The notes beneath the pieces are model-generated. The model did no database searches. It worked only from the letters and a program-made list of their open reading frames with translations, and was not told the DNA's origin. A program made the position numbers and the translations under genes. 64,000 nucleotides of DNA. Source: Octopus vulgaris (Eukaryota). Location: contig OX597817.1 of assembly GCA_951406725.2 (NCBI GenBank), positions 128,898,001 to 128,962,000 on the forward strand, written 5' to 3'. Every line of letters begins with the position of its first letter. Position 1 is the first letter of the stretch. Of the stretch, positions 30,238-57,768 are shown one piece after another.

Positions 30238-30567
30238 ACAATTGCAGCGCGGAAAGTGTTAATAAGCTATTTAAAAAACACAAACAAACAGTTAGATTCA
30301 CAATATTTGCCAAAATATTTTCGTCGCTTTGAGACCGCAACCTGTTCACAGACAAAATTCCGTGCTCCATCAATTTTGTCAGTGAACAGGTCGCGGTCTC
30401 AAATCAATGAAAATATTTTGGCAAATTAAATTTAAATGTTCATGTGAATCTAACGGTTTTGAGTGTTTCTTAAATGGCTTATAAACACCTTCCACGCTGC
30501 AATTGTTTTCGTTCTAGCACACGATCTCAGATCAGGTCACTTGTTATGCAAGTACATCTCTGTAAGA
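30238..30567 (+). mobile_element. Palindromic PLE-type element with G3-C8 hammerhead-like motif, in a (TA)n context
   Basis: Arms 30238-30358 / 30372-30506 plus about 60 nt unpaired 3' extension; homologous to 57457-57768. Confidence 0.75.
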
Positions 30568-30804
30568 TATATATATATATATTCTTTTAATTTTTTTACT
30601 CGTTTCAGTCATTTTAATCGAAAACATCGACCACAAGAATTTTTCTTTGTAAGTCTAGTACTAATCCTATAGGACCCTTTTGCCAATGCACTAAATTATG
30701 GGGACCTAAACACACCAAAATTTGTTGTCAAGGGATGTGAGGGAACAAACGCAGAAGCAAACACACACACACACACACACACACATACGCATATATATAT
30801 GCAT

Positions 30805-31372
30805 ATATGGGTACAGGACGTCACAAACGATAAACAATATGAAATACGAAAACAAATGAGTTGAATACGCAAATAATGAGAGAAACAAATGCAAAACAGG
30901 ATAAGTAACATAAAGAATGACACTTCATCAGTTATCGGCTCCCTATTTACTCCTCATTTCGAGTTTTGAACGACAACATGAGTCTTCGAATGCATTTGCT
31001 CCCACAAAAGCCAAAATAAAATTTGGGATTTATGGAGGGTCTAAGTTGGTAACAAAAACAGGACAGTGGATACATACAAGGAAACCGAACGAAAACAAAA
31101 ATGGAGGGTCATTAGACTAGACGAAAGTAAAATAGCGAACGCTGGAGAAATATTTTCTTTGACAAGAGAAAAAATAGAAGAGATAGATAGATAGGATACG
31201 CCCAGCCTCTAGGACAGCCCTGAAACGAAAGAAAGATGATCGCGTGAAGAAAAGAAAGACAGAAGATGGTTATGTGTGAGCAACGAGAGAGAGTATAGGG
31301 GAAAGAGGGGGTAAGAGAGAGACAGATAGAAAACGATAGGGGAAGAGAACAGTATAGGATAGACTCGCATCA
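30805..31372 (-). mobile_element. Putative PLE pseudo-LTR family ending ...gtgacgtcctgtacccatata (related pieces 33600-34250, 56810-57310, 58505-58585)
   Basis: Shared terminus abutting (TA)n, aactgatgaag motif, degenerate ...cgaaa stems. Confidence 0.5.
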
Positions 31373-31556
31373 TGTATATATATATATATATATATGTATG
31401 ATCGGCTAATTTGCAATTTTACACTCGACAGTGAACAAGGCCGCTAATCAGCACTAATATTGCTAAAAATAAGAGTCAAAACAACTCAATCGCCAACAAA
31501 AGCGCTATCTTAATGAGCTGACAAAGGAGACAAGCTCCCTATGGTCGCAGATACAT

Positions 31557-31614
31557 CCAGATCATCGATAATTTCACGTTCTGATGCTTAATGCATCTTA
31601 ACGCTCATCAGTGG
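31557..31614 (-). ncRNA. Type-I hammerhead ribozyme motif (C3-G8) with long stem II
   Basis: CCA CUGAUGA GCGUU-aa-GAUGC-auuaa-GCAUC-ag-AACGU GAAA UUAUCGAUGA UC UGG. Confidence 0.75.
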
Positions 31615-32050
31615 CTCTCCCCGCACCTAAGGTTTTACTTGTCAGCTAATTTCAAATGTAAAAGTGAAAATTATAAATAATATGGGTGGCTAATTCGCTA
31701 TCTTACAACCTAAAGGTAGAAATATATAGTCACTAAAGTGAATATGGGCACTTATCAGCACCAGTATTGCTAGAAATAGGAGTCAAAACAACTCAATAGT
31801 CACAGAAGCACAAAACAACTCAATAGTCACAAAACAACTCAATAGTCACAATTAGTTGACAAATGAGATAAGCTCCCTAAGGTCGCAAATACAGCCACTT
31901 TTACCGTTTATGAAATCAGTATATATATATATATATATATATATATATATATATATTATACCTGTATAATAATAATAATAATAATAATAATAATAATAAT
32001 AATAATAATATGACGACAAAAGAATGAATGAGAATTTATCTATAAATATA

Positions 32051-32264
32051 ATATGTAACATTTAGTTGGTTGTCATAATAGAACTCAGAGTCTCGGATGC
32101 CGGAGCTGAAGACTACTCTGGTATGTCATCAGTTATTAAGACAAAAATGCTATGAGATCTACATAGCGTTTTTGTCTTAATAACTGATGAGATACCGAGC
32201 AGACTTCAGCCCCGGCATCCAAAACTCTGAGTTTTATTACAACAACCAACTACTTGTCACATAT
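32051..32264. mobile_element. Palindromic element, each arm a degenerate hammerhead (C3-G8)
   Basis: Right arm UAAUAA CUGAUGA GAUACCG...CGGCAUC C aAAA CUC-u-GAG UU UUAUUA; left arm has GAgA, so the consensus is GAAA. Confidence 0.65.
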
Positions 32265-32754
32265 CATATATATATATATATATATATAAATGAGTGTTTG
32301 TGTGTGTGTGTGTGTATTGGTGTATGCGTATATGTGTGTACATAGCTGTTAATGATAAGGTTTACTATTCGTAGTTGATGACACGCAGGAGTACAGAAGC
32401 GGAATAGAATGACGTAATTCACACCCCAATATGTGTATTCACACGTGTTATTTTGGATAAGAATTTTCTTCCGGGAACATTTCCGCACCAGAGGTTTTTC
32501 TCATTGTATGCATGTATGAATGAATGTATGCATGTATATAGGTAGGTAGGCACGTACGTACGTATGTGTGTATGCGTGTGTGTGTGTGTGTGAGTGTGTG
32601 TGTATGTGTGTGTGAATGTGCATGGCTCAGCATATGCGCAGACTAGATGTATTCATCAGTGACTGTGACTCACTGATTAATACGGGTGAGTGATGCTGAC
32701 TGCCCGGCATGATTTAAAATATATACTTCCTTACGAACGTGTATGTAAATGTAA

Positions 32755-33050
32755 ATATATATATATATATATATATATATATATATATATATATATATAT
32801 ATATATATATATATATATATATATATATATATATATATATATATATATATATATATATATATATATATATATATATATATATATATATATACATATATAT
32901 ATACATATATATATATACATATATATATATATACATATATATATATATATATATATGCATGTATGCATGCATGCATGTATGTATTTATGTATGTATGTAT
33001 GTATGTATGTATGTATGTATGTATGTATGTATGTACGTACGTATTTATGT
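32755..33050. repeat. Long (TA)n plus (TATG)n
   Basis: Direct reading. Confidence 0.95.
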
Positions 33051-55230: not shown

Positions 55231-55251
55231 TATATATATATATATATATAT

Positions 55252-55610
55252 TTAAAAAAGGAGATGTGGAACACGAGTTGTGCTATATAAGAAAAGGAAA
55301 TGAAAAAATGCGACAAAATAATTTAAGTAAGGGAGAGTGTATTTAATTAGTGAAGTTCTTTTTACCGGTTGCGCATTTGTTATGCTTATCAAAAGATATA
55401 TTTTTAAGAGAGATAGAGTTCCTTTCTGATAGATTTTTTTTCTCTTATCTGAAAAAAAAAATCTATCAGAAAGGAACTCTATCTCTCTTTAAAAAATATC
55501 TTTTGATAAGCATAACAAATGCGCAACCGGTAAAAAGAACTTTCACCTAATTAAATACACTCTCCCTTACTTAAATTATTTTGTCAGCATTTTCTTCATT
55601 TCCTTTATAT
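55252..55610. mobile_element. About 155-bp-arm palindrome with U3-A8 hammerhead-like motif (GCAA instead of GAAA)
   Basis: Arms 55286-55440 / 55452-55610; UUGAUAA GCAU-aacaa-AUGC GCAA CCGG UA at 55503-55532. Confidence 0.7.
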
Positions 55611-55667
55611 ATATATATATATACACACATACACGCATCTTTTATTAATATTTGATACAAATAAGAG

Positions 55668-55756
55668 AGTGACTCAAAGGTCTAGAGTTTCGTGCGTTAG
55701 TATTTATCAAATTTTGATAAGTGTTAACGCATGAAACACTTAGTCCTTGAGTCACT
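55668..55756. mobile_element. Short palindrome of two U3-A8 hammerhead-like half-sites
   Basis: UUGAUAA GUGU-uaac-GCAU GAAA C...GUC at 55714-55745, mirrored on minus. Confidence 0.55.
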
Positions 55757-55789
55757 GCCAAATATTACATGTTTTGAATTCTACTTTTC

Positions 55790-56423
55790 CTGTTCTATAT
55801 TTAAGAGATGAGGAATTATGTACATTATTTACATTATTTACATTATTTACAATTGACGGATATTTGTCCTCATCTTGTTTGTTGTTAACACAACGTTTTG
55901 GCTGATATACCTTCCAGCCTTCATCAGGTTTCTTGGAGAAAATTCGAACCTGGATTCTCATTCTTAAGGTATTATTCGATGTTGTTGTTGTTGTTGTTAT
56001 TATTATTATTATTATTATTATTATTATTATTATTATTATTATTATTGTTATTATTATTGTTATTATTGTTATTATTATTATTACTATTATTATTAATCAC
56101 TACGCCATATGCCATCGGGCATATGGCGTAGTGGTTAAGAGCGCAGGCTACTAACCCGAATATTCCGAGTTCAATTCCAGGCAGTGACCTGAATAATAAT
56201 AATAATAATAATAATAATAATAATAATAATAATAATAATAATAATAATAATAATATCAACAACAACAACAACAACATCGAAAAATAACTTAGGAATGAGA
56301 ACCCAAGTTCGAAATTTCCCCAAGACACCTGATGAAGGCTGGAGGGTATATCAGCCGAAACGTTGTTTTAACAACAGACAATATCACAAATATCTGTCAA
56401 TTGTAAATAATGTAAATAATGTC
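55790..56423. mobile_element. Second copy of the tRNA-head/(AAT)n/hammerhead fold-back element
   Basis: Centre cactacgccatatgcc-atcg-ggcatatggcgtagtg; HHR ACAC CUGAUGA A GGCUGG...UCAGCC GAAA CG UU at 56325-56364. Confidence 0.8.
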
Positions 56424-57456
56424 TAATTTTCCTATTTGCACCGTCAAACCTAATATATATTCTTTTATTCTTGTACTTGTTCCATTCATTTGACTGCGGC
56501 CATTCTGGAGCACGAACTTTAATCGAACAAATCGGCCCCAGGACTATTTCTTTGTAAGCCTAGTATTTTATTCTATCTCTCTCTTTTTATCGTGCCACTA
56601 AGTGACAGGGACGTAAACGCACCAACGCCAGTTGTCAACGATGCTTGAAGGACAAACACAGACACAAATAACAAATACATACATATACATATATATATAT
56701 ATATATGTGTGTGTGTGTGTGTGTATGTGTTGTATAAATATATATATATATATATATATATATATATATATATATATATATATATATATATATATGTATT
56801 TATTTATTTATATATATAATTTTTATTTTTGCAGTTTTATTGTTTGTCTATGCCAGAAAAAAGGCTTTTTCGTTCGTCCTCTTGTGTGTTTGTTTTTGTA
56901 CATGTATCTCGTTTTGTAACTAATTGTATTTTTTGTACATGTATTTTTATTTTTGCAGTTTTATTGTTCGTCTATGCCAGAAAAAAGGCTTTTTCGTTCG
57001 TCCTCTTGTTTGGTTGTTTTTGTACATGTATTTCAATTTTGCAGTCTTATTGTTACGTCTTGTTTGTGTTCGTACTCATTTTGCCCCGCTGCTTGGAATT
57101 TTATTTTAATTCTCTCGCAGGAAGGCCTATTGGATTAGTGTTCTGTTATGCCTTCGAAACATGCCTGACTCCTCTAGCGACAGCTGATGACGGGGGTTTT
57201 GTCCTTGTGTAACTCATCCTGTATTTGTTTTTCGTTTTCTTGTTTTTTGTGTTTTGGCTTTTTCCGTTTCTACGTCTTTTTGTGATGTCCTGTACTCCCG
57301 TATAATTATTTATATATGCATGTATATATACATGTAGATGTAGGTACGTACATATATGTTTGTATGTATGCATATATTTTTATTTATCTCCTATATATAT
57401 ATATATATATATATATATATATATATATATATATATATATATATATATATATATAT

Positions 57457-57768
57457 AATGCAGCGTGGAAGATGTTTGTAAGCCATTTAAGAAACACACA
57501 AAAGCCGTTCGATTCACTACAACATTTAAGTTTAATTTGTCAAAATATTTTCGTCGCTATAAGACCGCGACAAAAATCCGTGCTCAGTGAACAGGTCGCG
57601 GTCTTATAGCGACGAAAATATTTTGACAAATTAAACTCAAATGTTGAGGTGAATCGAACGGCTTTTGTGTGTTTCTTAAATGGCTTACAAACATCTTCCA
57701 CGCTGCAATTGTTTTCGTTCCAGCACATGATCTCAGATCAAATCACTTGCTATGCAAGTACATCTCCT
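57457..57768 (+). mobile_element. Second copy of the G3-C8 hammerhead-like palindrome family
   Basis: CA GUGAACA G GUCGC-ggucuuaua-GCGAC GAAA AUAU UU UGACAAAUU at 57585-57632. Confidence 0.75.

What the first reader, a model, noticed from the sequence alone, without database searches (positions are those of the whole stretch)
30238..57768. G3-C8 swapped hammerhead family (30238-30567 and 57457-57768)
Seen: consensus of the arms UUUGUCA GUGAACA G GUCGC-9nt-GCGAC GAAA AUAU UU UGACAAA gives a 7-bp stem I, a 5-bp stem II, a palindromic AAUAUU stem III, an extra purine after A9 and a UUU cleavage triplet. GUGAACA occurs in all three arms that retain the core, so it is ancestral rather than decay. 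No single arm is fully intact. G3-C8 with UUU is an unusual natural combination as far as I know.
Basis: partly seen in the sequence, partly recalled or inferred. Interest (0 to 1): 0.75.

Follow-up and report, generated by a model that had tools for sequence, protein, structure and literature searches.

The report
Swapped-core hammerhead in active Penelope element
Both stretches are short fold-back copies from a young, very abundant jumping gene whose front end carries a hammerhead-type RNA motif with one core base pair flipped (G3-C8); related elements keep that pair matched in other ways, so the motif likely still folds and probably cuts slowly, but cutting is untested.

Summary
Confirmed, with corrections. 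The two stretches are palindromic insertions (inverted arm plus arm with tail) of a Penelope-like element (PLE); I found the parent: pLTR-ORF-pLTR, about 1,070 aa, RT motifs plus C-terminal GIY-YIG. G3-C8 is the family state: 4,413 exact core matches genome-wide, no C3-G8 match, 86 of 94 arms in a sample picked by the tail. Its sister family (55% aa identity, silent sites near saturation) has C3-G8 at the same place; four metagenome relatives have C3-G8 (2) or U3-A8 (2). So the pair changed three times and stayed Watson-Crick. The extra nucleotide, palindromic stem III and U17 are ordinary for PLE hammerheads; only G3-C8 is unusual, and laboratory C3G/G8C mutants are partly active. 92 of 153 arms start upstream of the core, peaking 22 bases before it with an untemplated G (likely cap), with no excess at the cut site: most template RNAs were uncut. 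The window copies themselves are damaged. Cleavage is untested. This scan noted the same swap before in this genome and others. New variant of a known kind.

The parts
30238..30371 (-). Element 1, inverted arm (second-strand copy of the pLTR/leader, 75% identical to a young copy)
30306..30356 (-). Element 1 inverted-arm hammerhead, G3 at 30349, C8 at 30344; first stem I pair broken (U.U), one G-U in stem II
30375..30564 (+). Element 1, direct arm plus tail (86% identical to a young copy)
30375..30425 (+). Element 1 direct-arm hammerhead, G3 30382, C8 30387, U17 30418; stem II 3' strand destroyed
30474..30564 (+). First 30 codons of the parent ORF (ATG at 30474), ending at the tail end
   Evidence: same sequence runs on into the RT ORF in L103, L126, L127
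30507..30564 (+). Element 1 unpaired PLE tail (between the two inferred RT start sites)
   Evidence: PMC11167929 for the meaning of the tail
57459..57582 (-). Element 2, inverted arm; core removed by an internal deletion
57584..57767 (+). Element 2, direct arm plus tail (92% identical to a young copy)
57584..57626 (+). Best hammerhead of the window: G3 57587, C8 57592, extra G 57594, 5-bp stem II, GAAA 57614-57617, palindromic stem III, U17 57623 (predicted cut 57623/57624), 3-bp stem I left
57680..57767 (+). Start of the parent ORF (ATG at 57680) to the tail end
57708..57767 (+). Element 2 unpaired PLE tail

Best explanation
The two stretches are short fold-back insertions of a young Penelope-like retrotransposon, and the motif in them is that element's minimal type I hammerhead, in which the 3-8 core pair is G3-C8 throughout the family and which likely still folds and probably cleaves slowly, as a dimer or with help from the element's protein. 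Shown: parent element with RT motifs and C-terminal GIY-YIG; hammerhead 92 nt upstream of the ORF start inside the pLTR; G3-C8 in all subfamilies; C3-G8 or U3-A8 at the same place in relatives; 5' ends piling up 22 nt upstream of G3 with an untemplated G; two fixed 3' ends (+182, about +125). Inferred: transcription starts at that point with a cap; the enzyme nicks (TA)n or other AT-rich DNA, primes on both strands at two sites inside the ORF start and runs off the capped 5' end, giving ~205-nt arms joined head to head; most of those templates had not been cut by the ribozyme; the reciprocal swap was kept because the 3-8 pair, not the identity of its bases, positions the ribose of nucleotide 8; U17 avoids a G3-C17 mispair. 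The window copies are dead by damage and would fold into long hairpins instead.
For: Parent: GIY-YIG PF01541 above cutoff; pLTR-ORF-pLTR in L127, hammerheads at 2239 and 6500; 29 of the 30 best EN loci L051-L080 show the G3-C8 motif about 1 kb behind the EN, the other locus is cut short of it; many near-identical EN copies and open frames up to 1,025 aa. Fixation: 4,413 exact matches; 96 of the first 100 of 5,127 matches with 3/7/8 free; 0 C3-G8; 86 of 94 arms, none C3-G8, in a tail-selected sample; no other letter at 3 or 8 listed at 1% in contigs of four organism labels. Covariation: sister family C3-G8 in 40 of 40 hits and 63 of 64 arms, 55% aa identity, 56 of 165 fourfold sites identical against 27% by chance, spacer no better than shuffles (167 of 500), yet 11 core letters identical; L171, L175 C3-G8, L172, L173 U3-A8, with different stems and palindromic stem III; tree places G3-C8 on one branch, sister to C3-G8 at 100 SH-aLRT. 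Ends: 62 of 153 arms end at -26..-15; G before AGATGC in 18 of 35 ends where the genomic letter is C or T. Target duplications of 7-14 nt in 17 of 35 insertions outside (TA)n. Literature: C3G/G8C partly rescues a PLE hammerhead, activity needs the protein, uncut RNA is the main substrate (PMC11167929); G3-C8 does better without C17 (PMC3884650, data not shown there).
Against: No cleavage was measured. No excess of 5' ends at the cut site (3 of 49 ends at +35..37, p 0.25, and all three are explained by stem I microhomology or a deletion), whereas the C3-G8 sister family has 5 of 98 ends at +30..38 around its cut site and none at 0..29 or 39..61 (small numbers, could be RT pausing). The predicted fold adds a G3-U17 wobble onto stem I, which would compete with the core. 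The sister family has C at position 9 and L172 too, so core rules are loose in this clade. Only six lineages have a known motif; L170 and L178 showed no convincing motif behind the ORF and six further loci were too short. A random double change at 3 and 8 gives a Watson-Crick pair 3 times in 9. The tree is the quick tree without bootstrap. Rfam finds no hammerhead (uninformative: it also misses the C3-G8 relatives).
Confidence: 0.68

Rival explanations
1. The motif is a hammerhead descendant that keeps its fold but no longer cuts; stems and core are held for another job (binding the RT-EN protein, shaping the 5' leader, translation control).
For: 92 of 153 arms span the motif from upstream, so their templates were uncut; no peak at the cut site; hammerhead mutants did not affect insertion in vitro for the anole element (PMC11167929); minimal PLE hammerheads are very slow in vitro (PMC4209133); G3-U17 can extend stem I.
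Against: The 3-8 pair forms in the active conformation (established from the full-length crystal structure; recalled, paper not held), and it stayed Watson-Crick through three inferred changes; G12, A13, A14, A15.1, U16.1 and a non-G at 17 are all kept while loop II changed at four positions between subfamilies. Uncut templates are also the rule for the canonical C3-G8 anole element.
Confidence: 0.24
2. The letters are conserved as DNA, as a downstream promoter element just behind the transcription start, and the G3/C8 match is a coincidence of two unrelated changes.
For: The core lies +23 to +58 from the inferred start; an RGWYV-type word (consensus recalled) sits at +30 to +34; a chance double change pairs 1 time in 3.
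Against: Spacing from the start varies by an indel between subfamilies and is about 65 nt in the sister family; stems covary between lineages; 10 of 49 truncations fall at the 3' foot of stem II, as expected if the hairpin forms in RNA (p 0.0005, post hoc).
Confidence: 0.06
3. The elements are MITE or fold-back DNA transposons with long terminal inverted repeats and the hammerhead look is chance.
For: Near-perfect palindromes in TA context.
Against: One-sided tail, variable centre, 45 of 99 sampled insertions without an adjacent inverted arm, target duplications of variable length, and direct continuity with an RT-GIY-YIG ORF on both sides.
Confidence: 0.01

Closest known systems
[quoted passage not shown]
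   Same: Type I layout in the pLTR, extra nucleotide between 9 and 10.1, G10.1-C11.1, short palindromic stem III, U-rich 5' flank, U17, opposite-strand pairs, mostly ORF-less copies.
   Different: G3-C8. In the 56 rows of their Fig. S3 none begins with G3 (53 C3, 3 U3 by my count); their one core swap is U3-A8.
PAc (Poseidon) of Anolis carolinensis (Frangieh et al. 2024, PMC11167929; passages and first half of the main text read)
   Same: Two RT start sites inside the ORF start that define the tail, AT-rich target, uncut RNA as main template; engineered C3G/G8C partly active.
   Different: There the ORF starts within the hammerhead and the swap is a laboratory mutant; here the ATG is 92 nt downstream of G3 and the swap is the natural state.
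Natural core variants of hammerheads (Perreault et al. 2011, PMC3088659; outline and sections 8-9 read, Fig. 5 and supplements not seen)
   Same: Covariation at 3-8 keeps activity.
   Different: The text names only U3-A8 as the natural covariation.
Neptune/Nematis PLE clades (Craig et al. 2021, PMC8557442; passages, part 2 of 10, supplement search hits)
   Same: C-terminal GIY-YIG preceded by a CX3CxxC linker, CCHH-type residues, tandem and inverted insertions, tail, (TA)n bias.
   Different: About 130 aa between RT motifs A and B' (longer than in the canonical rows seen), DKS for DKG; linker spacing looks closer to Nematis by eye; clade not tested by a tree with reference sequences.

Membership tests
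Penelope-like elements (EN+) | Single ORF with RT and GIY-YIG endonuclease | tested here: met
   GIY-YIG above Pfam cutoff; RT motifs read directly (SMDV..LYP, GAIG, YVDD) and homologue P0089 hits RVT_1 at 2.9e-6; P0002 itself has no RVT_1 hit
Penelope-like elements (EN+) | pLTRs from partial tandems, inverted 5' copies, one-sided tail | tested here: met
   L127, L081, L031; 54 of 99 sampled insertions with an adjacent inverted arm; 82 of 99 tails end at +182
Penelope-like elements (EN+) | Retrotransposition signature (target duplications, 5' truncation) | tested here: met
   17 of 35 non-(TA)n insertions with a 7-14-nt duplication; 51 of 86 end in (TA)n
Neptune or Nematis clade | CX2-5CxxC linker before a C-terminal EN | tested here: met
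   C-x3-C-x2-C in P0001/P0002 against the definition in PMC8557442
Neptune or Nematis clade | RT groups with reference members in a tree | not testable with these tools
   No reference PLE proteins were available as files; my tree holds only unnamed relatives
Hammerhead ribozyme, minimal type I of PLEs | Stems I and II around the core, G10.1-C11.1 | tested here: met
   Intact copy: pair probabilities 1.0 for stem II, 0.87-1.0 for six of seven stem I pairs, z -3.41; stems differ in sequence between six lineages
Hammerhead ribozyme, minimal type I of PLEs | U4 G5 A6, A9, G12 A13 A14, A15.1-U16.1, H17 | tested here: met
   Each at 96-99% in 94-115 arms
Hammerhead ribozyme, minimal type I of PLEs | C3 and G8 as letters of the consensus CUGANGA | tested here: not met
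   G3 and C8; 0 C3-G8 in the family
Hammerhead ribozyme, minimal type I of PLEs | Watson-Crick pair between 3 and 8 | tested here: met
   G-C here, C-G or U-A in five relatives
Hammerhead ribozyme, minimal type I of PLEs | Palindromic stem III allowing a dimer | tested here: met
   AAUAUU is self-complementary; but the two-strand minimum-energy fold did not use it
Hammerhead ribozyme, minimal type I of PLEs | Self-cleavage after N17 | not testable with these tools
   No assay; genomic 5' ends show no excess at the site; only assembled contigs, no raw RNA reads
Rfam hammerhead families | Covariance-model score | tested here: inconclusive
   No hammerhead row among the 150 shown of 359 for the window nor among all 66 for five loci, including C3-G8 relatives
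Non-LTR retrozymes | Head-to-tail tandem repeats each with a hammerhead | tested here: not met
   Window copies and the sample are dispersed single or head-to-head insertions

The most novel reading that the evidence does not exclude
A currently amplifying animal retrotransposon has fixed the G3-C8 hammerhead, so far known to me only as a weakened laboratory mutant, as an active but turned-down ribozyme at the capped 5' end of its mRNA; slow cutting leaves the leader intact as RT template and feeds thousands of short fold-back copies, and PLE hammerheads as a class sample all Watson-Crick pairs at 3-8, hiding large families from CUGANGA searches.
Probability: 0.3. Interest if true: 0.6.

Novelty: new variant of a known kind. 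Interest (0 to 1): 0.42.

Why it matters
It would be a natural, selected example of the C3G/G8C swap that helped prove the 3-8 pair, at more than 4,400 intact copies in one genome, invisible to descriptors that fix CUGANGA. With an active C3-G8 sister family in the same genome it offers a matched pair for asking the open question of what PLE hammerheads do. The cap-like G and the run-off ends also suggest how short palindromic PLE copies arise. It does not change the chemistry known for hammerheads.

Tried and rejected
Rfam scans: no hammerhead, uninformative. The repeat finder was swamped by microsatellites. No solved structure by sequence for the ORF. Viral contigs: 151 pattern hits, none a relative. 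Sequencing runs: no RNA holder listed on record, contigs only, so nothing on expression, start or cleavage. A G3-G8 ancestral subfamily (half-way state): rejected, because G8 occurs with every loop II type and in some palindromes in one arm only. A spliced-leader reading of the -22 peak (a branch-point and AG-like stretch lies just upstream): rejected for now, since the ends share only one G, no common exon. Cleavage-site peak: none; ends at -7 and +36 are confounded by stem I microhomology. Two-strand folding did not return the stem III dimer. Careful tree did not finish; quick tree used. Papers not held, so unseen: Lunse et al. 2017 on PLE hammerhead variants, Martick and Scott 2006, Przybilski and Hammann 2007, and two further ids tried from recall for Seehafer 2011 and Hammann 2012; any of these, or supplements of PMC3088659, may list natural G3-C8.
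Full report
Observation. The window lies in a 2.8-Gb, microsatellite-rich animal genome; a protein named as from Octopus vulgaris matches it at 100%. 30238-30567 and 57457-57768 are each an inverted arm joined head to head with a direct arm that runs on into a ~57-60-nt unpaired tail, within (TA)n. Three arms carry GTGAACA followed by G, a 5-bp stem II, GAAA, ATAT, TT and the 3' strand of stem I. All are damaged in some way and fold no better than shuffles, while an intact natural copy gives stems I and II at z -3.41. Whole-element transcripts would fold into long hairpins (-151 and -199 kcal/mol), so the window copies are relics.

Family. A DNA search gave 2,609 candidates (40 scored). 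The exact core pattern matches 4,413 times, control 0. With positions 3, 7 and 8 free there are 5,127 matches; 96 of the 100 listed are G3-C8 (hand count); C3-G8 in this context matches 0 times. To avoid selecting on the core I took the first 100 of 4,214 exact tail matches (99 loci, two matches share one locus) and parsed 153 arms: 86 of the 94 that cover both positions are G3-C8, none C3-G8, and every core letter is at 93-99%, while loop II splits into subfamilies at four positions. This sample favours younger copies. Contigs of four runs under four organism labels show no other letter at 3 or 8 at the 1% level (contigs drop rare variants).

Parent element. L031 has a GIY-YIG domain about 1 kb upstream of the motif. 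Searching with it gave 150 scored matches of 7,712 candidates, many identical, with open frames up to 1,025 aa. L127 shows pLTR-ORF-pLTR (with frameshifts) and L103, L126 show the sequence behind the hammerhead running straight into the ORF: the ATG lies 92 nt after G3 and the tail ends 90 nt into the ORF. The protein has RT motifs, a CX3CxxC linker and a C-terminal EN, which fits the Neptune/Nematis type defined in PMC8557442; the clade was not tested with references. Target duplications of 7-14 nt were seen in 17 of 35 insertions outside (TA)n; 51 of 86 parsed insertions end in (TA)n.

Is the swap selected? A sister family in the same genome (55% aa identity over 815 aa) carries at the same place a motif with C3-G8, C9, extra G and a related stem II (40 of 40 family hits; 63 of 64 arms). 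Between the two families 56 of 165 fourfold sites are identical (27% by chance) and the spacer to the ATG does not align better than shuffles, yet U4, G5, A6, the extra G, G10.1, C11.1, G12, A13, A14, A15.1 and U16.1 are identical. Of 14 metagenome relatives, six reach well past the ORF end; four have a motif there: L171 and L175 C3-G8, L172 and L173 U3-A8 (L173 found by eye, below the script's score cut), with unrelated stems and palindromic stem III; L170 and L178 show none that convinces. L171's motif precedes a homologous ORF start. A quick IQ-TREE tree of 49 rows groups the two octopus families (100 SH-aLRT) and puts the two U3-A8 rows apart, so parsimony gives C3-G8 as ancestral and three changes, each to another Watson-Crick pair (most rows have no known motif, L175 is a long branch, root at midpoint). 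An unrelated PLE in this very window has U3-A8 and another insertion has C3-G8. Each double change alone pairs by chance 3 times in 9, so the case rests on repetition and on the rest of the core staying put.

How the copies arise. 82 of 99 tails end at +182 and the inverted arms end near +125, as for the two RT start sites shown for the anole element (PMC11167929). 62 of 153 arms begin at -26..-15, mostly -22 to -19. Where an arm begins at AGATGC, the letter before is G in 18 of 35 non-redundant ends over all loci, C in 13, A 2, T 2, while the genomic letter is C or T and nothing further upstream is shared (p 0.0007 against 0.25; some G may come from microhomology with the other arm, and two rows may be unrelated sequence). 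I read this as a capped start copied by RT (cap-derived G is recalled from L1 work, not from a call). Then the hammerhead sits at the 5' end of the mRNA, ahead of the ATG, and the short copies are run-offs primed at the 5' initiation sites. 92 of 153 arms cross the cut site and start upstream of the core, and there is no excess at the cut site (3 of 49, p 0.25), so most templates were uncut. 10 of 49 mid-range ends fall at the 3' foot of stem II (post hoc p 0.0005; two are duplicates), a hint that the hairpin forms. In the sister family 5 of 98 ends lie at +30..38 around the cut site, none at 0..29 or 39..61: a weak hint of more cutting there, or of pausing.

Literature. PMC4209133 lists the extra nucleotide, G10.1-C11.1 and the palindromic stem III as standard, reports U3-A8, and finds very low activity; in its Fig. 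S3 text I count U17 in 24 of 56 rows, UUU in one, G3 in none. PMC3088659 names U3-A8 as the natural covariation. PMC11167929 and PMC8495972 report partial rescue by C3G/G8C. PMC3884650 notes that G3-C8 works better with G17 than with C17 (data not shown); here N17 is U in 114 of 115 arms while the C3 sister family varies (U 40, C 25), consistent with avoiding G3-C17, though the predicted fold shows a G3-U17 wobble. Searches for a natural G3-C8 found none; several key papers were not held, so absence from print is not established. Also seen: bioRxiv 10.64898/2026.07.22.740005 (part 1 of 5), PMC6765202, PMC6155905, PMC6962438, PMC13282606 (passages; the last has no mention of ribozymes).

Verdict. 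A real, family-wide core variant of a known ribozyme in a known kind of element, with good comparative support and no functional test. Earlier notes of this scan report the same swap in this genome and in others; they did not change my reading, which was written before the look-up.

Noticed in passing
window 60552-62085: 5'-truncated PLE with a Neptune-type EN frame (60707-61366 +) and an inverted arm; its hammerhead (61990 +, 60670 -) has U3-A8, no extra nucleotide, palindromic stem III and A17.
   Followed up: partly
window about 26120-26790: Palindromic insertion with a canonical C3-G8 minimal hammerhead at 26252 (-); so three different 3-8 pairs occur in this one window.
   Followed up: partly
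L166 3275-7213 (-), L088 6337-8001: Very young sister PLE family (1,312-aa open frames, 2,079 exact tail matches) with a long Asn-rich insert; its hammerhead has C at position 9 in 63 of 64 arms, an imperfect stem III palindrome and a U/C polymorphism at 17. L172 also has C9.
   Followed up: partly
genome-wide, position 8 of the family motif (e.g. L196, L198, L207): C8 to G is in excess: 44 of the first 100 of 255 non-C8 matches, against 9 of 100 of 117 for G3 to C and a background C>G of 0.37% vs C>T 1.82%. It is spread over subfamilies and sometimes in one arm only, so it looks like a recurrent error hot spot; cause unknown.
   Followed up: partly
P0002 residues about 440-570: About 130 aa between RT motifs A and B' in a C-terminal-EN PLE, shared by the sister family; PMC8557442 describes such an insertion for N-terminal-EN elements. 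About 100 unnamed homologues suggest a broad, perhaps poorly annotated PLE lineage.
   Followed up: no
L127 about 2195-2222: Just upstream of the inferred start lies a branch-point-like word, a pyrimidine tract and AG, so an intron end as in Drosophila Penelope is not excluded for longer read-through transcripts.
   Followed up: partly
window 13112-13223: Weak match (76%, 117 nt) to the microsatellite-rich 3' UTR of the parent element; probably simple-repeat similarity.
   Followed up: no
window 37147-38043: Inverted repeat with 329-nt arms, 95% complementary, 239 nt apart; possibly another fold-back insertion.
   Followed up: no
L096, L097 and other contig C16 copies: Several of the most diverged EN copies in the list lie on contig C16.
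   Followed up: no
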